From positions 1 to 35,131 of the forward strand of contig CAYOHL010000002.1 of NCBI GenBank assembly GCA_964403775.1: a DNA stretch of 35,131 nucleotides, in the 5' to 3' direction. The notes under the pieces were generated by a model that worked only from the letters and a program-made list of their open reading frames with translations, searched no databases and was not told the origin of the DNA. Within the stretch, counting starts at the first letter, position 1. Each line of letters starts with the position of its first letter. Of this stretch, positions 9,598-30,654 are shown piece by piece. The position numbers and the translations under genes were made by a program. The stretch is from an uncultured Methanosarcinales archaeon (GTDB lineage: Archaea; Nanobdellota; Nanobdellia; Woesearchaeales; CG1-02-33-12).

Positions 9598-9930
9598 ATG
9601 AGGTTTCAGGATGAACCAACACTATTTAGGGAGTTGTTAGGTGATACCCCTAAAATAAGGGTTTTAGAATATTTATTAGAAGGACGCGAACTAGACCATT
9701 CTATAGGTAATATTGCAGAAGGTGCTGGGATAAACAGGGTTACATTGTTTAGAATGTGGGATGAAATAGAAAAATCCAAAATAATAATACACACAAGAAA
9801 CATAGGAAATGCTAAATTATATAAGCTTAATATGGATAACCCTTATGTAAGGATTTTAGTTGATTTGTTTGATAAAATCATAAATATTGATTTTCAGGAA
9901 GGTAAAATCAAGAAAAAGGTTATTGCATAG
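9598..9930 (+). CDS. winged-helix transcriptional regulator (paralog of 28198..28596)
   Basis: LLGDTPKIRVLEYLLEGRELDHSIGNIAEGAGINRVTLFRMWDEIEKSKIIIHTRNIGNAKLYKLNMDNPYV aligns with the 28198..28596 product. The track start at 9589 is GTG. Confidence 0.7.
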   Translation: MRFQDEPTLFRELLGDTPKIRVLEYLLEGRELDHSIGNIAEGAGINRVTLFRMWDEIEKSKIIIHTRNIGNAKLYKLNMDNPYVRILVDLFDKIINIDFQEGKIKKKVIA

Positions 9931-24354: not shown

Positions 24355-25158
24355 TTACATGAATAATTTTTTATCTCCTAATTCTTTTATAGCATCCTGT
24401 GTCCAGATAGCTAACCTGCCGGGATTGGTTGATGGTGCCAACACCTTTGCATTAATTGATTTAACAATTCTCACATTAACCCCTGCTATGTTTTTTGCTG
24501 CCTTTAATAAAGCACAGTCTTTTGAAACAATGATTAATGGGCCTGCTTTGCTTTTGTATTTTCTGCCCCTTTTCTTTCCCTTTCCACTTCTAATGATTCT
24601 TTCATTAACCCTTGAAAGCTCTTTTTCAAGACCTATTTTTTTCAAAACATCTCTTACTTGCTTTGTTTTTTTCAGTGACTCAAACTTTCCTTCAATTATA
24701 AATGGATAGTTATCAGGAACAATATGGTTTTTAGCAACAAGTTCTTTTGATAGTGTTGCTGTAATTGCGCTTCTTATTGCCTTTCTTCTTTCCTTTTTGT
24801 TGATTTTCTTTGTCCAGTCTTTTCCAGCTTTAGGTGGGTGAGCCTTTCTTCCGCCAACTGTTCCAGGTGCAAAGGCCCCAACCCAGTTCATTCTTGTTCC
24901 GCGGCTGCTCATTATTTTCCTTGGAACTCTTGAAATCCCTATGCCATAGGCAGTCTTGTAATCATGCCTTCTTCTTGATAGCTTTGCAGACGCCCTTTTT
25001 CCAGCCATTGGGTCTGCTCCATAGGCCTGCCTTGCATTGCCCTGTATTGAGATAACAGCTCTCTTTATCAGGTCTGGCCTTACCTCTTCCTCAAACTGTA
25101 TAGGCATTTCCTGCTTTCCTATTTCTTCTTTTGATATATTTAATATTGGCAGTTTCAT
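24355..25158 (-). CDS. rpl4: ribosomal protein uL4
   Basis: [21 protein letters not shown]...[25 protein letters not shown]. Confidence 0.94.
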
Positions 25159-26117
25159 TTTTGAATATTAATATGCTCTATCTCAAATGTTTCTGAGTGT
25201 TTTCTTTTATGCGGCCTTATAGCATTGTTTAACCTTATAAGCCTTTTTTCAGTCCCCTGTACAGAGCCCTTTAACAGGATGTAGCTGTTCTTTACAAGGC
25301 CATAATGCTTAAATCCTGATTTTGGGTTTATTTCATTTGGCTTGTCTGAAACCTTTATTACCAGTTTATTGTAATCTGTTCTTGTGTGGTATCCTGTTTG
25401 GCCTGATTGCGGGACACGCCAGATTGCTGACTGAATCCATGGGCCAAGGTTTCCGACAGAGCGCTTCTTTTTCTCTGATTTATGTTGTTTTAATGACACC
25501 CCAAACCTCTTTATAACACCTTGCAGGCCCTTTCCTTTTGTAACAGCATGCGCATCAACTAACTGCCCTGGCCTTAATATTTCTGTTAATGTTATTTCCT
25601 TGCCAAGTTTTTCCCTTGCATAGGCAAGCTGCTGCTCTTTTGCTCCTCCAACAGCAATCTCAAAAACCTCTGGCTTTTTCTTTCCTATGCCTGTTAAGCT
25701 AGGCTGTGTATAAACCAAAAGCCTTATCTGATCATAATTTTCAGGCTCTTTTTGCTTGTTTTCTTTTTTTGGCATCAGCATCTTTCTCTTGAGGTTTTTG
25801 TCAAGGTTTTTTGTTAGTATCTGGCTGACTGCCTTTAATCCATAAGCAGTTCTCTTGTAAAACCTTATTGCAGCTGCTTTTAATGGCGGGCACTCTATTA
25901 TTGTTACTGGCCTGAATATTGATTCTCCTGGAGTCATTGAGTGAGGCCTTGTGCTTTTAATTAACAAGTGAGTCATTCCAACCTTATATCCTGCAAATCC
26001 AGTTATTTTGTTATTACTAGAGCTAGCATAATTTCTTATTCTTGGATAAGCTCGTCTAGCCCTTTTTCTAGGCCAGAACTGCATGCTTCCGTGTCTTGGA
26101 CTTCTTGCCTTTCCCAT
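25155..26117 (-). CDS. rpl3: ribosomal protein uL3
   Basis: PRHGSMQFWPRKRA..FAGYKVGMTH..VTKGKGLQGVIKRFG. First gene of the cluster. Confidence 0.95.
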   Translation of the reverse strand: MGKARSPRHGSMQFWPRKRARRAYPRIRNYASSSNNKITGFAGYKVGMTHLLIKSTRPHSMTPGESIFRPVTIIECPPLKAAAIRFYKRTAYGLKAVSQILTKNLDKNLKRKMLMPKKENKQKEPENYDQIRLLVYTQPSLTGIGKKKPEVFEIAVGGAKEQQLAYAREKLGKEITLTEILRPGQLVDAHAVTKGKGLQGVIKRFGVSLKQHKSEKKKRSVGNLGPWIQSAIWRVPQSGQTGYHTRTDYNKLVIKVSDKPNEINPKSGFKHYGLVKNSYILLKGSVQGTEKRLIRLNNAIRPHKRKHSETFEIEHINIQK

Positions 26118-26279
26118 CTTATTATACCCTAATCTGCTAAATAACCTTGAATTGCAGGTTTTAGTGCAAAAATAAGCCTTTTAATAAAGCTTTCCTTTTA
26201 GAACAAGTTTAATTGCTAAACTTTGTACTGAAAAACTTTTTTTCAGGCTTGTTTAGTGCTTTATAGTATTTAAATCCCC

Positions 26280-26326
26280 TATATACCTATTTAAATACTC
26301 TGAATGAATTCCTTTAGAGAAATAAC
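26280..26326. repeat. direct repeat copy 1 (36-nt core 26291-26326 plus 11-nt extension)
   Basis: TATATACCTAT-TTAAATACTCTGAATGAATTCCTTTAGAGAAATAAC. The core matches 27388-27423 at 35 of 36 positions. A TTTAAAT box is embedded on the minus strand. Confidence 0.85.
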
Positions 26327-26364
26327 TAGTGTTTATAAAGTTTTGTTTTTTGAATTTTACCTGT

Positions 26365-26415
26365 GTTAATGATTAACAAATCACTGTTTTATAACTTATT
26401 TTGTTAATTATTAAC
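26365..26415. promoter_or_regulatory. pair of 13-bp palindromes GTTAATGATTAAC / GTTAATTATTAAC (25-nt spacer) at the cassette 3' end
   Basis: Read directly at 26365-26377 and 26403-26415. It mirrors the pair at 27309-27360. Confidence 0.8.
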
Positions 26416-27004
26416 TAAATAGAATTACTCTTTGTTTCTTGAATGCTACATCCCACTGCTTGAAAAAGGATGTAATAACAGCTTCTTTGCCTATTGGGAT
26501 TAAAATGCTTCCTTTGCCGAGTTCTCTTCCCTTTAATTCAGCCAGAACCCCTTCTCCTTTTTTTCTGCCAAATAAAGCATATGAAAATCTAACCTTATCA
26601 GAGGCTTTTTTGTCTCTTAGTTCATACCTCATAATCAAGAAAGAATCAAAATTCAGTATATTGCTTACTGATTTCATGTTCTTAATACTAAACCCTTCAT
26701 GAATTATGTTTCTGTGTGCTCTATTGCTAAACATGTCATCGACAATTAGGGGCTCTATATGCAGATTAAGCTCAAGTTTATCTCCGATTTTTTTAATCTC
26801 ATAATCTATGTCTTCGATAAGCTTATAGTCTTTATCTCTAAATAAACTGATCAAGTCAATATCTTTTGGTTCTTCTTTACTTTTTAATGCTGAGCCAAAG
26901 ATATATACATCAACCAAGTATTTTTCCTTTTTTAACAAGTTCTGTAAGTTTCTCTTTAATTTCTTTATCTGTTGGGATTTCAATATTTGTGTTTTTAAAT
27001 GCAT
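26411..27004 (-). CDS. nucleotidyltransferase (minimal NTase/MNT-like) with unassigned C-terminal domain
   Basis: KYLVDVYIFGSALKSKEEPKDIDLISLF (GS...DxD). The roughly 110-aa C-terminal region is unrecognised. The start is uncertain because it overlaps the upstream ORF. Confidence 0.7.
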   Translation of the reverse strand: MHLKTQILKSQQIKKLKRNLQNLLKKEKYLVDVYIFGSALKSKEEPKDIDLISLFRDKDYKLIEDIDYEIKKIGDKLELNLHIEPLIVDDMFSNRAHRNIIHEGFSIKNMKSVSNILNFDSFLIMRYELRDKKASDKVRFSYALFGRKKGEGVLAELKGRELGKGSILIPIGKEAVITSFFKQWDVAFKKQRVILFS

Positions 27005-27305
27005 CTTTAATCCTCTTTTTAACCAGCTCTAATTCTTCTTTTTTCAATTCCTGAGTATAAGTTCTCCTATAAGCCGAGAATAGCTTATCAGTTATAATAT
27101 ATAATTCAGGAAACCTTAGTTTTAATATCCTGAATCTCTCAGTGTGATCTTTTGGTCTTTCACCAATTTTAGCAATGATAAAATCATCTGCTGCAAATAA
27201 AGCCTTGAAAAAATTAGAAGCAGATTCAGAACACATGCCTAATTTTTCTGCTATACAGGCTATCATATAATAATTTTTTGCTTTAGTTTTTAGATCTTCT
27301 TCCAT
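26910..27305 (-). CDS. HEPN-domain-like protein
   Basis: All-helical. NYYMIACIAEKLGMCSESASNFFKALFAADDFIIAKIGERPKDHTERF...LFSAYRRTYTQ follows a HEPN-like pattern. The ATG at 27305 lies about 25 nt downstream of the minus-strand TTTAAATA (27331-27338). The track start at 27329 is TTG. Confidence 0.55.
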   Translation of the reverse strand: MEEDLKTKAKNYYMIACIAEKLGMCSESASNFFKALFAADDFIIAKIGERPKDHTERFRILKLRFPELYIITDKLFSAYRRTYTQELKKEELELVKKRIKDAFKNTNIEIPTDKEIKEKLTELVKKGKILG

Positions 27306-27308
27306 CCT

Positions 27309-27360
27309 GTTAATAATTAACATAAACAACTATTTAAACCTTTCGTTGTTAACCATTAAC
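27309..27360. promoter_or_regulatory. pair of 13-bp palindromes GTTAATAATTAAC / GTTAACCATTAAC flanking the cassette TATA box
   Basis: Palindromes at 27309-27321 and 27348-27360 with a 26-nt spacer. The spacer contains the minus-strand TTTAAATA at 27331-27338. Confidence 0.8.
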
Positions 27361-27362
27361 AT

Positions 27363-27423
27363 TATATGCCTATCTAATTATTTCACATTAAATACTCTGA
27401 ATAAATTCCTTTAGAGAAATAAC
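27363..27423. repeat. direct repeat copy 2 (36-nt core 27388-27423; extension with a 14-nt indel)
   Basis: TATATGCCTAT-[CTAATTATTTCACA]-TTAAATACTCTGAATAAATTCCTTTAGAGAAATAAC. Confidence 0.85.
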
Positions 27424-27514
27424 GGCTCTGGTGCAACCCTAGAAAGATTTAAGAGGCTCAAGGCCTCTTTTGTTGTATATTATAAACACCTAACAACAAA
27501 AAGAGGTGAGCCCC

Positions 27515-27733
27515 ATGAGAGAATATTATCCAGACTTCTTAAACTTTATTGATGAAGCGCTTAAATTAGCAAAGAAAATTCCAAGATACTTTTCAAAGTA
27601 TAGCAATAGGATTTACTGCAATCATCAAAAGCTTTGCATACTTGTATTAATGCAGAAGCTAAAGACTACAAGCAGAGGAATAGTCTCTTGGTTAAGATCC
27701 AACTCTGAAGCAAGATATGTAAATTCTATTTAA
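27515..27733 (+). mobile_element. truncated transposase N-terminal fragment (IS4/IS5-type DUF772-like pattern)
   Basis: MREYYPDFLNFIDEALKLAKKIPRYFSKYSNRIYCNHQKLCILVLMQKLKTTSRGIVSWLRSNSEAR. It stops after about 72 aa with no DDE domain following. GAGGTGA lies upstream of the ATG at 27515. Confidence 0.45.
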
Positions 27734-27822
27734 AAAGTGAAGATTGTGTTAAAAAAGTGGGAGAAAATTAAGACTTATTTAACAAAGCTTTTTTTTGAAG
27801 AAAAATAAGTAAGATAAGGAGC

Positions 27823-28071
27823 TTAATGCCTAATGATTTCTTGTATTTCAGAGAGAAGTTCTTTATTTAGTTGTATAGCATTCTTGCTTTTCTTAGCATA
27901 AACAACAAAGGACTTTTTAATAAGACTATATATAGCTTTTTTAGCATCTCCATATTGGTGTGGCATAAATCCAGATTTCATTACTCTCTCTAGTCTTATA
28001 TGCTTGGCTCCATACAACCTTCTAGAATGCATTACTTTTAATATTGCAATTTCAAAATTATTTAGGCTCAT
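27823..28071 (-). CDS. small winged-helix-like DNA-binding protein (paralog of 9206..9484)
   Basis: See the alignment with the 9206 product. A minus-strand TATA-like ATTTATATAG (28094-28103) lies 23 nt from the ATG. Confidence 0.65.
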   Translation of the reverse strand: MSLNNFEIAILKVMHSRRLYGAKHIRLERVMKSGFMPHQYGDAKKAIYSLIKKSFVVYAKKSKNAIQLNKELLSEIQEIIRH

Positions 28072-28127
28072 AAAACTATTTTCAAAAGAATAGCTATATA
28101 AATCTGCCTCTTATTTTATGTTTAATA

Positions 28128-28155
28128 TTGGTTATTTTTTAACCAACATTGGTTA
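28128..28155. promoter_or_regulatory. operator-like triple half-site TTGGTTA-N6-TAACCAA-CA-TTGGTTA
   Basis: Overlapping perfect inverted repeats lie between the two divergent TATA boxes (28094-28103 and 28168-28175). Confidence 0.55.
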
Positions 28156-28197
28156 AAAATAGGAAGATTTAAATATAAGTTATAATTTACTATATCC

Positions 28198-28596
28198 ATG
28201 ACAAGTTTAAATGATGAAATGGGAAAATCTGTATTTTTAGAGAGTTTTGGGGACTCTTCAATAAACAGAATTTTGGACTTTTTAATAGTGTTTGATAACT
28301 TTGATTATAGTATGGTAGATATAGCTATAAAAGCAGGAGTTGGTTACTCTACTTTAAAAACATTAATAAAAGAACTATTGAGAAAGGGTTTAATCATTCA
28401 AACTAGGATTAGTGGTAAATCCAAGATGTATAAATTAAATAAAGAGAATCCTCTGGTGAAAAAATTTACAGAATTTTATTGGAACATAACAGATGAGGCT
28501 ATTGGTAAGGAAGTAAAAACACGAAAAGAGCAAAGCTCTTTTGTGCCCCAGAAACCAAAGGTTTCTGTGAAAGAAAAAATAATTGTTTCACATTAA
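28198..28596 (+). CDS. winged-helix transcriptional regulator (paralog of 9598..9930)
   Basis: FGDSSINRILDFLIVFDNFDYSMVDIAIKAGVGYSTLKTLIKELLRKGLIIQTRISGKSKMYKLNKENPLV. TTTAAATA lies 23 nt upstream of the ATG. Confidence 0.7.
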   Translation: MTSLNDEMGKSVFLESFGDSSINRILDFLIVFDNFDYSMVDIAIKAGVGYSTLKTLIKELLRKGLIIQTRISGKSKMYKLNKENPLVKKFTEFYWNITDEAIGKEVKTRKEQSSFVPQKPKVSVKEKIIVSH

Positions 28597-28610: not shown

Positions 28611-29045
28611 TTAACTCCTTGCCCATCTTACAAGCAGATAGACAAAGGGCGTATCACAAATAGCGATTATAACTTTGATTATAAAAACCCCAAAAATTGT
28701 AGTTAAAATTGAATTTAATGGCAAGACGCCTAAAAATACAATTGAGATAAATAATATGCTATCAATTAATTGACTTACAATTGTGCTTAGATTATTTCTT
28801 AACCACAGATGTTTGCCTTTAGTCAATTTTTTCCAGAATGAAAAAGAAAAAACATCATGGGTTTGGCTTACTATATAGGATATTGCTCCTGCTATTACAA
28901 TCCTTTCACCTATCTGCCAATATGTTTGGACCCTTGTATTATCTACAGCTTTGTAAGCCTGTGCTTTGGCTTTATCCAACAAAAATTTTGTGTCATTAAG
29001 CACTTGGCTATATCCTCTAGAACTTGTTATGATTTGTTTTTTCAT
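28611..29045 (-). pseudogene. chimeric ORF: DUF1016/YhcG-type N-terminal fragment fused in frame to the C-terminal half of a YhhQ/Vut-family (queuosine-precursor) transporter
   Basis: Residues 1-50, GYSQVLNDTKFLLDKAKAQAYKAVDNTRVQTYWQIGERIV, match the DUF1016 N-terminal pattern. Residues 51-144, ..KGKHLWLRNNLSTIVSQLIDSILFISIVFLG...CDTPFVYLLVRW, match the YhhQ C-terminal pattern. Both partners are incomplete. Confidence 0.65.
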
Positions 29046-29157: not shown

Positions 29158-30654
29158 CTAATTTTTTCTTGTTTTTCCTTTCTTAACAGATTTTACTTTT
29201 ATTCTGCTGTAGTTGACAGGGTTTTTTATTCTGCTGCAAAGATTGTCTGGCTCGCATATTCCTATATCCTTGTAGTAAGCAGCATTATCGCAGTTTGGGG
29301 GCAGGACTTTCTTTCTGTTCCTTTTGTGGTATTTTAGCTGGCCAAGCAAACTAACCTCTCTTAATGGCTCATAATTTTTTTTGTTCCATTCTGTTAAAAG
29401 TTTTTCTATTTTTTCATAATCCCAGCCAACGCTTGTAAGGAAATTTATCAGTATGAAAGAAAACCTCTTTCTTCCGTCCTTTAACCCTAATAATCCTTTT
29501 TTTATGCATGGCGGAAAAAAATCTTCCTGAAGTGCAAATCCCAATGACACATATTCCTTTTTTTCTGCTTCAGCCCTTTCATCATATATTTTATGGTCAA
29601 AGGCCTGTATTATTAATTTTCCTGCCTCGCCCTTTTTTACATTTTTCCTGTCCAGAAACCTGAATTTAGTAATCCTCAGTGTTTCTGGTTTTGCAGAAGA
29701 TTTCTCAAAACCCAGAATTTTGTCAGGGTCAATTGGGATTGATGCAAGGCCTGATTTCTCATGCAAAGAATAAGCCATCCTATACAAATGCCTTGAAGAA
29801 ATAAGCATGGCGTCAATAAAAAGATTAACTTTTTTTCCAAACTTTTTTCCACCGCATTCCTGACATTTTTTAATTGCAGGGCCTTGAATTTTTTCCATGT
29901 AAACCTTGTCCTTGTCGCAAAGCATATACTTAACAGACTTATCTGCACTTACTGTTTTCCCGCATTTTGGGCATATAAACTCAACCTGTTTTTTGTCTTC
30001 TGGCTTTAATCTTGCACTACATTTAAGGCATATATCCTTTGTGAACTCATCAACATCTTTTCCTGTTCTTTTAAGAAAATCATTAAATTCACTGCTTTTA
30101 ATTATTTTTTTTGATAGCCCAAAGCCCTTTTCCTTGCTGTCAACATAATCTGCAAGATAACTCAAAATTCTTTTTGTTGATTCAGGAAAAAGAAGCCTTG
30201 TTTCATTATTATGCACTTTTTCTGGAAATGCCTCAAACGGAACGCCTATATGAAATCCCTTGTTGCCTGAGAACTTGCAGCTTATAGAGCTTATACCATG
30301 CTCTTTCAATGCCTTTATTATCTCGCTTGCTATAAGCTTTGTTATTTCCCAGACCTCAAAATCAATATCAATAACAAGATCCCAGCCAGTCCTTAAACTA
30401 TCAGCATCTTTTTTGCTCATAAGTGTTGTTAGCTGCAGGGGGTTTCTCCAATGCTCTTCAGAAACATGGAATGATGTAGCTCCCTGCTTTACTTGCTCAA
30501 TAATATCTGTTGGGTATTTCAAGATATCAGGTCTCTTTCCAAAACCCTTATCGCCAAACCTTGCAACTGCCTCTTTATCATGGGCAGCAAGAATTATCTC
30601 ATCCTGAACATCTTTTCTCTTGTAGTGCTTCAGAGCAGTGCTTAAACTTATCAT
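29158..30654 (-). CDS. fused archaeo-eukaryotic DNA primase: PriS catalytic domain, Zn-ribbon insert and PriL C-terminal Fe-S domain
   Basis: AEP motifs WDLVIDIDFE, FSGNKGFHIGVP and SSRHLYRMAYSLHEKSG. CxxC pairs CLKCS..CPKCG and CQECG. PriL-CTD-like FFPPCIKKGL..RKRFSFILINFLTSVGW...LPPNCDNAAYYKDIGICEPDNLCSRIKNPVNY (4 Cys). Confidence 0.85.
   Translation of the reverse strand: MISLSTALKHYKRKDVQDEIILAAHDKEAVARFGDKGFGKRPDILKYPTDIIEQVKQGATSFHVSEEHWRNPLQLTTLMSKKDADSLRTGWDLVIDIDFEVWEITKLIASEIIKALKEHGISSISCKFSGNKGFHIGVPFEAFPEKVHNNETRLLFPESTKRILSYLADYVDSKEKGFGLSKKIIKSSEFNDFLKRTGKDVDEFTKDICLKCSARLKPEDKKQVEFICPKCGKTVSADKSVKYMLCDKDKVYMEKIQGPAIKKCQECGGKKFGKKVNLFIDAMLISSRHLYRMAYSLHEKSGLASIPIDPDKILGFEKSSAKPETLRITKFRFLDRKNVKKGEAGKLIIQAFDHKIYDERAEAEKKEYVSLGFALQEDFFPPCIKKGLLGLKDGRKRFSFILINFLTSVGWDYEKIEKLLTEWNKKNYEPLREVSLLGQLKYHKRNRKKVLPPNCDNAAYYKDIGICEPDNLCSRIKNPVNYSRIKVKSVKKGKTRKN

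What the first reader, a model, noticed from the sequence alone, without database searches (positions are those of the whole stretch)
26280..27423. HEPN/nucleotidyltransferase cassette framed by mirrored GTTAA-N3-TTAAC palindrome pairs and a 36-nt direct repeat, sitting on the rpl3-operon promoter
Seen directly: I noticed the 13-bp palindrome GTTAA-N3-TTAAC four times, all at the two ends of this 2-gene cassette.
- Left end: GTTAATGATTAAC (26365-26377) and GTTAATTATTAAC (26403-26415), with a 25-nt spacer. The inner copy covers the NTase stop codon.
- Right end: GTTAATAATTAAC (27309-27321) and GTTAACCATTAAC (27348-27360), with a 26-nt spacer. The spacer carries a minus-strand TTTAAATA box (27331-27338), and the inner copy covers the first ATG.
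- Reverse-complementing the right end gives outer GTTAATGGTTAAC and inner GTTAATTATTAAC. This is the same outer/inner order as the left end (12/13 and 13/13 identical), so the ends look like terminal inverted repeats.
- Just outside both ends lies a direct repeat, TTAAATACTCTGAAT[G/A]AATTCCTTTAGAGAAATAAC (26291-26326 and 27388-27423, 35/36). It extends by TATAT[A/G]CCTAT with a 14-nt indel.

A rough estimate for DNA of about one-third GC gives far less than one such palindrome per 35 kb.

Inference, two options:
- The palindromes are operators of a toxin-antitoxin-type autoregulator that were duplicated along with promoter DNA.
- The repeats are the boundaries (att-like direct repeats plus inverted protein-binding sites) of a ~1.1-kb mobile or integrated cassette. 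It would have landed between an upstream element and the TATA box of the ribosomal-protein operon.

A transposase remnant lies about 90 nt beyond the right repeat.
Basis: partly seen in the sequence, partly recalled or inferred. Interest (0 to 1): 0.8.

Follow-up and report, generated by a model that had tools for sequence, protein, structure and literature searches.

The report
Mobile HEPN–nucleotidyltransferase cassette with operator frame
A small, self-regulated toxin-antitoxin-like gene pair of a DPANN archaeon carries four copies of its own repressor-binding palindrome (two around its promoter, two around a second promoter-like module at its 3' end), and it has landed just upstream of the ribosomal-protein L3 operon at a spot where small cassettes insert repeatedly and leave duplicated host DNA.

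Summary
GTTAA-N3-TTAAC occurs exactly four times in 35 kb (0.08 expected), all at the ends of a minus-strand HEPN + minimal-nucleotidyltransferase pair. The 36-nt repeat is 35/36 identical.

**The palindromes are family-wide operators, not a local accident.**
- In 21 independent cassettes (170 kb) they sit at the same four positions and nowhere else.
- More distant relatives carry different palindromes at the same positions.
- The upstream pair brackets the BRE/TATA box.
- The downstream pair has the same geometry. In three-gene relatives it is followed directly by a histone-fold-like gene that is missing here.
- The mirrored, terminal-inverted-repeat reading is not supported across the family.

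**The cassette is a discrete mobile unit.** A 94% identical copy lies in an unrelated context. Homology between cassettes starts 0-8 nt before the distal palindrome.

**The 36-mer is native rpl3-upstream DNA.** It is single-copy in relatives that lack the cassette. The second copy is a scar of serial insertions: its 14-nt "indel" matches the 3' end of the neighbouring wHTH gene. Flanking duplications of 22-109 nt of local DNA recur at other insertion sites, and their mechanism is unknown.

Verdict: a new variant of a known kind, of moderate interest.

The parts
27348..27360 (-). P4, the promoter-distal operator palindrome (GTTAATGGTTAAC on the cassette strand) and the first conserved element of the cassette
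   Evidence: Exact match. An equivalent site is present in all 21 related cassettes. Homology between cassettes in different contexts begins 0-8 nt upstream of it.
27331..27338 (-). TATA box (TTTAAATA) of the cassette promoter, preceded by a purine-rich BRE-like GAAAGG
   Evidence: Read directly. The same AAAGnTTTAWATA motif lies between the two upstream palindromes in every relative examined.
27309..27321 (-). P3, the promoter-proximal operator palindrome, 3 nt upstream of the HEPN ATG and over the expected transcription start
   Evidence: Its centre is 39 bp from the centre of P4.
26910..27305 (-). HEPN-fold protein (131 aa), the toxin-like partner. It has no Pfam hit and no Rx4-6H motif.
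   Evidence: AlphaFold model with pLDDT 93. The best PDB fold matches are HEPN proteins: 2hsb (TM 0.72-0.75), 2q00, 1ufb, 1wol and HepT. Alignment A2 gives the conserved residues. The ORF is broken in L011, L015 and L021 while the NTase stays intact.
26411..27004 (-). Minimal nucleotidyltransferase (MntA-like N-domain) plus a ~85-aa ferredoxin-like C-terminal domain. It overlaps the HEPN gene by 95 nt in another frame.
   Evidence: Pfam Polbeta PF18765 scores 28.7 bits against a cut-off of 26.9. GS...DxD is invariant in alignment A1. The model has pLDDT 88. Foldseek hits MntA antitoxins 6m6u, 6m6v, 5yep and 8xeo at probability 1.0.
26403..26415 (-). P2, the inner 3' palindrome, overlapping the NTase stop codon
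   Evidence: In 17 of 21 cassettes a site lies -11 to +6 nt from the end of the NTase stop codon.
26378..26402 (-). Spacer of the 3' module, with a central TATA-like TTATAAAA (26387-26394) preceded by AAAATAAG
   Evidence: The geometry matches the upstream module. In L034-L037, L085, L093 and L159 the equivalent module is followed directly by the ATG of a third gene.
26365..26377 (-). P1, the outer 3' palindrome, whose centre is 38 bp from the centre of P2
26354..26364 (-). Remnant of the cassette tail. The tail is ~110 nt in L026 and L075 and was shortened here by a deletion.
   Evidence: Comparison of the window, L026, L075 and L021 downstream of P1. Homology between L021 and L026 runs 35 nt past P1.
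26327..26353 (-). Element 'A' (TCAAAAAACAAAACTTTATAAACACTA), native rpl3-upstream DNA
   Evidence: It lies directly upstream of the 36-mer in the empty sites L079, L077, L200 and L205.
26280..26326 (-). DR-L: the native 36-mer 'D' (26291-26326) plus extension 'E' (26280-26290). D contains the imperfect 22-bp palindrome CTCTAAAGGAATTCATTCAGAG.
   Evidence: It is single-copy and conserved in relatives without the cassette.
26266..26276 (-). Probable TATA box of the rpl3 operon (GATTTAAATAC), followed by a ~145-nt conserved leader
   Evidence: Alignment of six relatives. This is inference; no transcription start data exist.
27363..27423 (-). DR-R: a second copy of D (27388-27423), then 14 nt TGTGAAATAATTAG (27374-27387), then an E-like ATAGGCATATA (27363-27373)
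   Evidence: D plus the 14 nt aligns at 89% over 45 nt with the D|wHTH-gene junction of L200. The E-like 11-mer also precedes the cassette in L026, and in diverged form in L021.
26352..27788 (-). The 1,437 bp that are present here but absent from the otherwise collinear relative L200: the unverified IS remnant, DR-R, the cassette and the tail
   Evidence: L200 2371-3094 matches window 28517-27789 at 92%. L200 3090-3400 matches window 26351-26040 at 90%.
25155..26117 (-). rpl3 (uL3), first gene of the ribosomal-protein operon downstream of the cassette
   Evidence: Pfam Ribosomal_L3 at 1.6e-69.

Best explanation
The region holds a 1.0-kb, self-contained HEPN/minimal-nucleotidyltransferase (HepT/MntA-like) module of a DPANN (Woesearchaeota/Nanoarchaeota-type) archaeon.

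**What the palindromes do.** The four GTTAA-N3-TTAAC palindromes are binding sites for a sequence-specific dimeric protein encoded by the module itself.
- Two sites, 39 bp apart, bracket the BRE/TATA box. The proximal one covers the transcription start of a near-leaderless HEPN-NTase transcript. Occupancy would therefore block TBP/TFB or RNA polymerase, giving negative autoregulation.
- The other two sites, 38 bp apart, bracket a second TATA-like AT-rich spacer that starts on the NTase stop codon. This is a second promoter/operator module in the same orientation.
- In three-gene relatives the second module drives a small histone-fold-like gene. In this clade that gene is gone but the module is kept.
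- It is therefore probably still bound. It could act as a roadblock or terminator for the operon, as a looping partner of the upstream operators, or as a regulated read-out promoter facing rpl3.

**How the cassette moves.**
- The module moves as a discrete unit, from the distal palindrome to about 35 nt past the outer palindrome. It carries no recombinase of its own.
- It sits in a hypervariable spot immediately upstream of the intact rpl3 promoter region, where other small cassettes (the wHTH/82-aa pair) and IS elements have also inserted.
- The 36-nt direct repeat is native rpl3-upstream DNA (DR-L) plus a leftover duplicate from these serial insertions (DR-R).

**Shown and inferred.**
- Shown: the site conservation and covariation, the protein folds, the unit boundaries, the empty sites and the recurrent flanking duplications.
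- Inferred: who binds the sites, repression, the role of the 3' module, toxicity and the insertion mechanism.
For: **Sites.**
- Four exact palindromes against 0.08 expected.
- In 21 distinct cassettes (170.5 kb) the upstream pair is always present. A downstream site at a fixed offset occurs in 17 of 21. There are 0 exact palindromes anywhere else.
- The distal palindrome - AAAGnTTTAWATA - proximal palindrome - ATG architecture is conserved.
- Relatives below about 35% identity, and L033 at 42%, carry other palindromes at the same positions: GTTGAnnnTCAAC, TCAAnnnTTGA, GTTAAAnnnnTTTAAC, GTTGGTnnnACCAAC and GTTTAnnnTAAAC.
- A collection-wide scan for the palindrome pair returned 80 loci. Ten carry the cassette, four look like remnants or contig-edge fragments, and the rest are GTTAAC-type simple repeats.

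**Proteins.**
- HEPN fold and MntA-like NTase.
- HEPN and NTase are paired in 47 of 49 GTDB loci.
- The HEPN ORF is broken in 3 loci, while the NTase is never broken.
- Precedent: the Shewanella MNT antitoxin binds its own promoter, which carries two palindromes (PMC4621449).

**The 3' module as a promoter.** The third gene starts 0-15 nt after the outer palindrome in L034-L037, L085, L093 and L159. That gene has weak histone-fold hits.

**Mobility.**
- A 94% identical 1,014-bp copy lies between unrelated genes in L021.
- Homology edges fall at the distal palindrome in five independent pairs.
- The cassette is 96% identical to L026's, while the flanking rpl3 DNA is 85% identical and the L3 proteins 83.8%.
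- Empty sites with one A-D-E copy: L079, L077, L200 and L205.
- L200's wHTH/82-aa pair is flanked by a 62-nt duplication of A-D, 58/62 identical.
- Flanking duplications exceed all 1,892 cross-locus controls in 6 of 44 loci, and exceed the 99.9th percentile in 2 more.
Against: - No protein in the cassette has a recognisable DNA-binding domain. The NTase C-domain has only weak ferredoxin-like matches, so the binder is not identified and could be a host factor.
- The HEPN protein lacks the Rx4-6H RNase motif, so toxicity, and therefore the TA logic, is unproven.
- Spacer similarity cannot tell whether the 3' module is direct or inverted relative to the promoter. The orientation argument rests on the three-gene relatives and on purine content.
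- Four of the 21 cassettes lack the 3' sites, so the module is dispensable.
- The history of DR-R is ambiguous. It matches a wHTH-cassette junction, yet it directly abuts the E-like flank of the HEPN cassette.
- All sequences are metagenome assemblies, and no expression data were available.
Confidence: 0.7

Rival explanations
1. The palindrome pairs are the terminal inverted repeats, or recombination sites, of a non-autonomous transposon-like or integron-like cassette. A recombinase encoded elsewhere binds both ends, excises the cassette and inserts it. The flanking direct repeats are its target duplications or att sites.
For: - The sites lie exactly at both ends of the conserved unit, and homology between cassettes starts 0-8 nt before the distal site.
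- In this window the outer/inner order is mirrored, 25/26.
- Each pair can form a hairpin of -5 to -9 kcal/mol, z-scores -2.2 to -4.
- Flanking duplications are recurrent.
- L032 has a 3'-type pair directly abutting the promoter pair, like a joined-ends junction.
- L030 has tandem cassettes.
Against: - There is no family-wide mirror preference: 269 against 267 of 312. Spacers do not favour the inverted orientation.
- The upstream pair is fully explained as a BRE/TATA-bracketing operator, and the downstream pair as the promoter of gene 3.
- Duplication lengths run from 22 to 109 nt, and the duplication lies 0-182 nt from the palindromes. That is incompatible with cleavage at the palindromes or with a fixed stagger.
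- The duplicated sequences are local DNA that differs at every site, so there is no att core.
- The module is 51 bp with a promoter inside. It does not match attC (R''/L''/L'/R', 57-141 bp, only 3' of the ORF).
- No integrase or transposase was found among the window ORFs that were scanned.
Confidence: 0.12
2. The 3' palindrome pair is an antisense, inward-facing promoter/operator. It makes an antisense RNA against the NTase (antitoxin) 3' end, adding an RNA layer to the control of the module. The mirrored arrangement is then functional.
For: - TATA-like octamers are nearly symmetric.
- Read in reverse, the L029 spacer is AAAGAGG-TTTAAAATA, a good BRE/TATA.
- The mirror order holds in the window.
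- The module is retained in two-gene cassettes that have nothing to drive downstream.
Against: - The purine-rich BRE-like side lies more consistently on the forward side. In L034 and L035 the count is 6 of 9 purines forward against 2 of 9 in reverse.
- In three-gene relatives the module clearly faces outward, to gene 3.
- No transcript data exist.
Confidence: 0.08
3. The pair is not a toxin-antitoxin module. It is a two-subunit nucleotidyltransferase, with a catalytic NT domain and a HEPN-like substrate-binding subunit as in HI0073/HI0074 or kanamycin nucleotidyltransferase. It has a housekeeping or resistance role, and an ordinary host transcription factor regulates it through the palindromes.
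For: - HEPN lacks the Rx4-6H motif.
- Foldseek also hits HI0073 (1no5), the AadA/ANT(9) enzymes, and the NT+HEPN-like protein 3c18.
- An MNT-HEPN fusion is reported as conserved in housekeeping contexts in DPANN (PMC6393860).
Against: - The distribution is patchy, with different contexts in every genome.
- A near-identical copy sits elsewhere.
- Only the HEPN gene is repeatedly inactivated.
- The palindromes occur only at the cassette and travel with it, which argues for a cassette-encoded binder.
Confidence: 0.1

Closest known systems
Type VII (formerly type II) HepT/MntA HEPN-MNT toxin-antitoxin systems, e.g. Shewanella oneidensis SO_3166/SO_3165 and Aphanizomenon HepT-MntA
   Same: - A HEPN-fold protein is paired and co-transcribed with a minimal pol-beta nucleotidyltransferase carrying GS...DxD.
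- The NTase model matches MntA structures.
- Palindromes at the promoter fit autoregulation by the MNT partner, as shown by EMSA for SO_3165 (PMC4621449).
   Different: - The gene order is reversed (HEPN first), with a 95-nt out-of-frame overlap.
- HEPN lacks the Rx4-6H/RX4HXY motif.
- The NTase carries an extra ferredoxin-like C-terminal domain.
- There are four identical-type operators, two of them at the 3' end.
- Some relatives add a histone-fold-like third gene.
- The promoter is archaeal (BRE/TATA).
Integron gene cassettes, including TA cassettes of chromosomal integrons and the archaeal integrons/CALINs (recalled from my own knowledge of the literature)
   Same: - Small one- or two-gene units are bounded by imperfect palindromic sites.
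- They occur in varying contexts and sometimes in tandem (L030).
- TA genes are typical cargo.
   Different: - The sites here are 13-bp operators flanking a TATA box at both ends, not a single 57-141-bp attC at the 3' end.
- The cassette has its own promoter.
- No IntI or attI was found.
- Insertion duplicates 22-109 nt of local DNA, which integron recombination does not do.
HI0073/HI0074-type two-protein nucleotidyltransferases and archaeal MNT/HEPN pairs (AF_0298, SSO P95883, ST0689 HEPN proteins)
   Same: These are the best structural matches of the HEPN protein (2hsb, 2q00, 1wol). 1no5 and 2rff match the NTase.
   Different: - Those pairs have ~100-aa MNTs without the C-terminal domain.
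- No operator frame or mobility data have been described for them.
DPANN-specific MNT-HEPN fusion cluster cls.004259 (NEQ050) of Makarova et al. 2019
   Same: It has the same two domains in the same superphylum and is found next to housekeeping genes (PMC6393860). A few HEPN-family representatives are longer, possibly fused proteins.
   Different: - That cluster is a conserved single fused gene.
- The module here is a patchy, mobile two-gene cassette. Homology to NEQ050 was not tested.

Membership tests
HepT/MntA (type VII) HEPN-MNT toxin-antitoxin | Minimal nucleotidyltransferase with the pol-beta hG[GS]x9-13Dh[DE]h motif | tested here: met
   G37, S38, D48 and D50 are invariant or nearly so in 33 sequences. 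PF18765 scores above its cut-off. Foldseek hits MntA chains at probability 1.0.
HepT/MntA (type VII) HEPN-MNT toxin-antitoxin | Partner protein with the HEPN fold | tested here: met
   The pLDDT-93 model has HEPN proteins as its best PDB matches (2hsb at TM 0.72-0.75 and rmsd 2.0; HepT chains are also listed). No HEPN Pfam model hits the sequence.
HepT/MntA (type VII) HEPN-MNT toxin-antitoxin | Rx4-6H RNase motif, with the adjacent tyrosine that MntA AMPylates | tested here: not met
   No conserved R-x(4-6)-H exists in the 28-sequence alignment. The invariant residues are H54, R57, Y79, R80 and Y83 (PKDHTERF and YRRTY).
HepT/MntA (type VII) HEPN-MNT toxin-antitoxin | Toxicity of HEPN that is neutralised by the MNT | not testable with these tools
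   The only evidence is indirect. The HEPN ORF is disrupted in L011, L015 and L021, while the NTase is intact in all loci.
HepT/MntA (type VII) HEPN-MNT toxin-antitoxin | Autoregulation through palindromes in its own promoter | tested here: inconclusive
   The palindromes bracket the TATA box and covary with the family. Binding itself has not been tested. The precedent is.
Integron gene cassette / attC | A single 57-141-bp attC (R''-L''...L'-R', RYYYAAC...GTTRRRY) at the 3' end of a promoterless ORF | tested here: not met
   The modules are 51 bp long, lie at both ends and contain a BRE/TATA. Their half-sites match the R boxes at only 6 of 7 positions (read by eye). No attC covariance model was available.
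Integron gene cassette / attC | An IntI tyrosine recombinase and attI in the vicinity | tested here: not met
   No recombinase was found among 18 window ORFs scanned against Pfam. The rest of the genome was not seen.
IS/MITE-type transposable element | Terminal inverted repeats at the exact ends | tested here: not met
   Mirror and direct similarity are equal across 12 loci and in the spacers. The conserved unit extends about 35 nt past the outer palindrome.
IS/MITE-type transposable element | Target-site duplication of a fixed, short length | tested here: not met
   Duplications measure 22, 33, 36, 61, 98, 108, 108 and 109 nt and lie at variable distances from the ends.
Site-specific integrative element (att core shared by element and target) | The same core sequence flanks the element at every insertion site | tested here: not met
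   The flanking repeats are local host DNA that differs at each locus: the rpl3 upstream region, the HtpX 3' end, the 3' end of an HTH gene and the 3' end of a nuclease gene.

The most novel reading that the evidence does not exclude
DPANN archaea may have a recombinase-independent, or at least so far unrecognised, way of inserting small self-regulated cassettes.
- It would duplicate tens to about 100 bp of target DNA. That regenerates the target, so cassettes can stack at hot spots such as the rpl3-upstream A-D-E element, giving an integron-like cassette platform without attC or IntI.
- The multimeric HEPN-MNT complex bound to the four end-located palindromes could itself bridge the cassette ends, acting like a synaptic complex during mobilisation.
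- The retained 3' operator/promoter module could put the downstream ribosomal-protein operon partly under the cassette's control.
Probability: 0.15. Interest if true: 0.85.

Novelty: new variant of a known kind. Interest (0 to 1): 0.58.

Why it matters
**A testable regulatory code for DPANN archaea.** These organisms are uncultivated and almost nothing is known about their transcription factors. The family has a defined operator whose half-site changes across subfamilies, and the changes can be matched to protein changes.

**Two unexpected properties of a HEPN/MNT module.**
- It has an operator-framed 3' promoter module that persists after its gene has been lost.
- In some lineages it has recruited a histone-fold protein.

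**Small TA-like cassettes spread as sharply bounded units.**
- The cassette is 96% identical between genomes whose ribosomal protein L3 is only 84% identical.
- The insertions are flanked by long, variable duplications of host DNA.
- They occur repeatedly at the same spot in front of a core ribosomal-protein operon.

If the duplications reflect a specific insertion mechanism, that would be a new route of gene flow in reduced archaeal genomes.

Tried and rejected
- **Metagenome scan for the 36-mer** (degenerate at two positions): 0 hits. The JGI contigs known to carry it are evidently not in that collection, so it said nothing about copy number. I used L3 homologues instead to find empty sites.
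- **RNA searches:** Rfam gave no hits in the window and ARAGORN found no tRNA. No RNA gene explains the repeats.
- **PDB sequence searches** with both family profiles found nothing significant. Only the fold comparison worked.
- **Orientation of the 3' module.** Tests from spacer similarity and palindrome order were both uninformative or neutral. I rejected the 'mirrored TIR' as a family property.
- **attC-like reading:** rejected on length, position and promoter content. No attC model was available.
- **Hairpin folding of the modules** showed modest stability that follows trivially from repeated palindromes. It was not used as evidence.
- **'Transposase remnant' at 27506-27733:** no Pfam, NCBIfam or plasmid tblastn hit and no relative in any fetched locus. 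It remains unverified.
- **A 9-nt TTCAAAAAA 'target duplication'** at the junctions of the 1,437-bp insertion: considered and set aside. L026 and L075 show that the right-hand copy is a deletion scar inside a longer tail.
- **A simple one-step duplication of D-E by the HEPN cassette:** rejected. Element A lies only next to DR-L, and DR-R carries 14 nt of the wHTH gene end.
- **Literature searches** for flanking repeats of archaeal TA cassettes, and for a HEPN-NTase-histone operon, found nothing specific.
Full report

Yes.
- GTTAANNNTTAAC matches exactly four times in the 35,131-bp window, at 26365, 26403, 27309 and 27348. Dinucleotide-preserving shuffles give a mean of 0.08, and none of 100 reaches four.
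- Allowing one mismatch adds only four scattered sites.
- The 36-mer occurs at 26291-26326 and 27388-27423, 35/36 identical. No other copy is found even with three mismatches.
- The extension with a 14-nt insert, the minus-strand TTTAAATA box at 27331-27338 and the overlap of the inner left palindrome with the NTase stop codon are all as described.

The cassette lies on the minus strand, the same strand as the ribosomal-protein operon that begins with rpl3 (26117 to 25155).

**2. What are the genes?**

*The NTase (26411-27004).*
- It passes the Pfam Polbeta threshold and keeps the GS...DxD motif in 33 homologues.
- It models with pLDDT 88. Its N-domain matches MntA antitoxins of HepT/MntA systems at Foldseek probability 1.0.
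- It also has an ~85-residue ferredoxin-like C-terminal domain with no informative match.

*The upstream ORF.*
- Its true start is the ATG at 27305, from the homologue alignment. It has no Pfam hit.
- It models at pLDDT 93, and its best structural matches are HEPN proteins: AF_0298 at TM 0.72-0.75, SSO P95883, TT1696, ST0689 and HepT.
- It lacks the Rx4-6H RNase motif. The invariant residues are H54, R57, Y79, R80 and Y83.

*The pair.*
- The two genes overlap by 95 nt in different frames.
- The HEPN family is small: 197 representatives among 1.84 billion proteins.
- The HEPN-NTase pairing holds in 47 of 49 genome loci, essentially all from DPANN archaea.
- The HEPN ORF is interrupted in L011 (in-frame TAA), L015 (frameshift) and L021 (10-nt insertion). 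The NTase is never broken. That asymmetry is what one expects of a toxin and its antidote.

**3. The palindromes are operators that belong to the cassette family.**
- NTase homologues of 36-97% identity, in quite different genomic contexts, carry the same palindrome at the same places.
- Over 21 distinct cassettes and 170.5 kb of locus DNA, every cassette has the upstream pair. Seventeen have a site -11 to +6 nt from the end of the NTase stop codon, usually with a second site 38-39 nt further on. Not one exact palindrome lies anywhere else.
- The upstream arrangement is invariant: distal palindrome, about 9 nt of purine-rich sequence, TTTAWATA, about 9 nt, proximal palindrome, then 2-3 nt and the ATG. 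This is an archaeal BRE/TATA promoter of a near-leaderless mRNA, bracketed by two dimer-binding sites.
- More distant relatives keep this architecture but with other palindromes: GTTGAnnnTCAAC in L033, TCAAnnnTTGA in L038 and L039, GTTAAAnnnnTTTAAC in L044, GTTGGTnnnACCAAC in L046 and L048, and GTTTAnnnTAAAC in L043 and L047. Covariation of the site with the cassette is the signature of a cassette-encoded, sequence-specific binder.
- A collection-wide scan for the paired palindromes returned 80 loci. Ten carry the cassette, four look like remnants or contig-edge fragments, and the rest are GTTAAC-type satellite repeats with no promoter-like spacer.
- There is a bacterial precedent. The MNT antitoxin SO_3165 binds its own promoter, which carries two palindromes (PMC4621449).

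**4. The 3' pair.**
- It has the same geometry as the promoter pair: 38 bp centre to centre, with a central TATA-like TTATAAAA preceded by AAAATAAG.
- In the three-gene relatives (L034-L037, L085, L093, L159) the outer palindrome is followed within 0-15 nt by the ATG of a 60-86-residue protein. That protein has weak histone-fold matches and the typical ...KKAGxxRVS...GRKT... pattern.
- The 3' pair is therefore a second operator-flanked promoter in the same orientation.
- In the window's clade (53-97% NTase identity) the third gene is absent but the module is mostly intact. This argues for a retained function. Candidates are a roadblock or terminator, a looping partner for the upstream operators about 940 bp away, or a regulated promoter reading towards rpl3. 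I cannot distinguish these.

**5. The mirror-image reading.**
- In this window the mirrored order fits slightly better than the direct order (25/26 against 23/26).
- Over twelve loci the two orders are equal, 269 against 267 of 312. Spacer similarity is also equal in both orientations.
- The hairpin potential is modest and follows trivially from repeated palindromes.

I therefore do not regard the pairs as terminal inverted repeats.

**6. The cassette is a discrete, recently mobile unit.**
- L021 (GCA_964458955.1) holds a 94% identical copy over 1,014 bp. It lies between an alanine-racemase-fold gene and a methyltransferase gene, next to a tRNA-like sequence.
- Homology begins a few nucleotides before the distal palindrome. 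It ends about 35 nt after the outer one when L021 is compared with L026.
- Five further pairs of related cassettes in different contexts also begin their homology 0-8 nt before the distal palindrome.
- The window's cassette is 96% identical in DNA to that of L026. The adjoining rpl3 DNA is 85% identical and the L3 proteins 83.8%. The cassette has therefore moved between lineages more recently than those lineages diverged.

**7. What the 36-nt repeat is.**

*Native upstream DNA and empty sites.*
- I call 26327-26353 'A', the 36-mer 'D' and its extension 'E'. Together they are native rpl3-upstream DNA.
- Relatives with L3 at 82-88% identity have one A-D-E copy and no HEPN cassette: L079, L077, L205 and L200.
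- L079 runs straight from the Vut_1 transporter gene into A-D-E.
- L200 is collinear with the window through the wHTH and 82-aa genes and then runs directly into A-D-E. Window 26352-27788 (1,437 bp) is the extra DNA.
- L026 has the cassette at the same place, with a ~110-nt tail before A. L075 keeps only the last 20 nt of the NTase gene, both 3' palindromes and the tail. The rest is replaced by an rve-type IS and mobile-element genes.

*The second copy is not a simple target duplication by the HEPN cassette.*
- A is present only next to DR-L.
- The 14-nt 'indel' after DR-R (TGTGAAATAATTAG) is the 3' end of the wHTH gene. In L200 that gene end abuts a second A-D copy.
- L200's wHTH/82-aa pair is itself flanked by a 62-nt duplication of A-D, 58/62 identical.
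- The E-like 11-mer next to the distal palindrome travels with the HEPN cassette. It is identical in L026. In L021 it is preceded by the last 11 nt of D, 19/23 identical, which is better than all 849 control windows.

DR-R is therefore a composite scar of serial insertions at one hot spot.

**8. Flanking duplications are a general feature.**
- In 44 loci I compared the DNA just upstream of the promoter module with the DNA just downstream of the 3' module. The null was all 1,892 cross-locus pairs, whose maximum score was 23.
- Six loci exceed every control: L028 (108 nt, 96 identical), L035 (108, 98), L129 (98, 88), L060 (109, 86), L029 (61, 53) and the window (36, 35). Two more, L053 and L011, exceed the 99.9th percentile.
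- Where it can be read, the downstream copy is the true 3' end or promoter of a host gene and the upstream copy is a fragment.
- L030 has two tandem cassettes, each followed by the same ~40 nt.
- The duplications vary in length and in their distance from the palindromes (0-182 nt). This excludes a fixed staggered cut and an att core. The insertion mechanism is unexplained. Repair-mediated capture at staggered breaks is my inference only.

**9. Comparison with what is known.**
- The module works like a HepT/MntA (type VII) system with promoter palindromes.
- It fails one defining feature, the Rx4-6H motif. It also differs in gene order, in the NTase C-domain, in the second operator-flanked module and in the optional histone-fold gene.
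- It is not an integron cassette, an IS/MITE or an att-type integrative element by the features I could test.
- A DPANN-specific MNT-HEPN fusion in housekeeping contexts has been noted before (PMC6393860).
- I found no description of this cassette architecture or of its flanking duplications.

**10. Verdict.**
- The new elements are: the four-operator frame conserved across a DPANN family, the operator covariation, the orphaned 3' promoter module, and the recurrent long target duplications at a hot spot in front of rpl3.
- I rate it a new variant of a known kind, with interest 0.58.

Noticed in passing
window 26118-26265 (minus strand); L026, L075, L077, L079, L200 equivalents: The ~145-nt 5' leader of the rpl3 operon is about 90% conserved among relatives whose L3 proteins are only 82-88% identical. 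It folds into a predicted two-hairpin structure. There is no Rfam match and only one compensatory pair. It may be a ribosomal-protein autoregulatory leader.
   Followed up: partly
window 27823-28596; L200 2278-3160: The neighbouring wHTH (132 aa, +) and 82-aa (-) gene pair is itself a cassette. In L200 it is flanked by a 62-nt duplication (58/62) of the rpl3-upstream A-D element. An 18-bp palindrome, TTAACCAATGTTGGTTAA (window 28139-28156), lies in the divergent intergenic region. A wHTH paralogue lies at window 9619-9870.
   Followed up: partly
L034 3614-3805, L035 2662-2859, also L036, L037, L040, L048, L051, L053, L059, L064, L085, L093, L159: Many relatives of the cassette have a third gene directly after the NTase. 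It encodes a 60-86-aa protein with weak histone-fold hits (PF00808 at E 0.065; CENP-T_C). I found no description of a HEPN-MNT-histone-fold triad.
   Followed up: partly
L011 5688-6060; L015 2456-2850: The HEPN ORF is interrupted at the same place (after RRTYT) by a TAA in L011 and by a frameshift in L015. The C-terminal ~40 codons stay conserved in both. This could be coincident decay or programmed recoding.
   Followed up: no
window 28611-29045: This ORF looks chimeric. A 30-residue DUF1016_N-like N-terminus is joined to only the C-terminal two-thirds of a Vut_1/queuosine-precursor transporter. The relative L077 has a full DUF1016/YhcG gene nearby. It is further evidence that this region is a rearrangement hot spot.
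   Followed up: no
L075 1-4350: In one relative, the DNA upstream of rpl3 holds an rve-family IS with repeated ACTAATTTCGGAATT motifs and a block of mobile-element genes (DnaB-like helicase, HTH_36, RHH, PC4-like). These replace the 5' part of the HEPN/NTase cassette.
   Followed up: no
L032 2580-2690: A 3'-type palindrome pair (spacer AATAAGCCTATTTTAAGCC...) lies directly upstream of the promoter pair, and no pair follows the NTase gene. This could be a joined-ends or circularly permuted arrangement, or the remains of a tandem cassette.
   Followed up: no
window 29158-30654: A 498-aa protein combines primase small-subunit-like and large-subunit-like regions with a zinc ribbon. It appears to be a fused PriS-PriL-type primase, conserved next to this region in relatives.
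   Followed up: no
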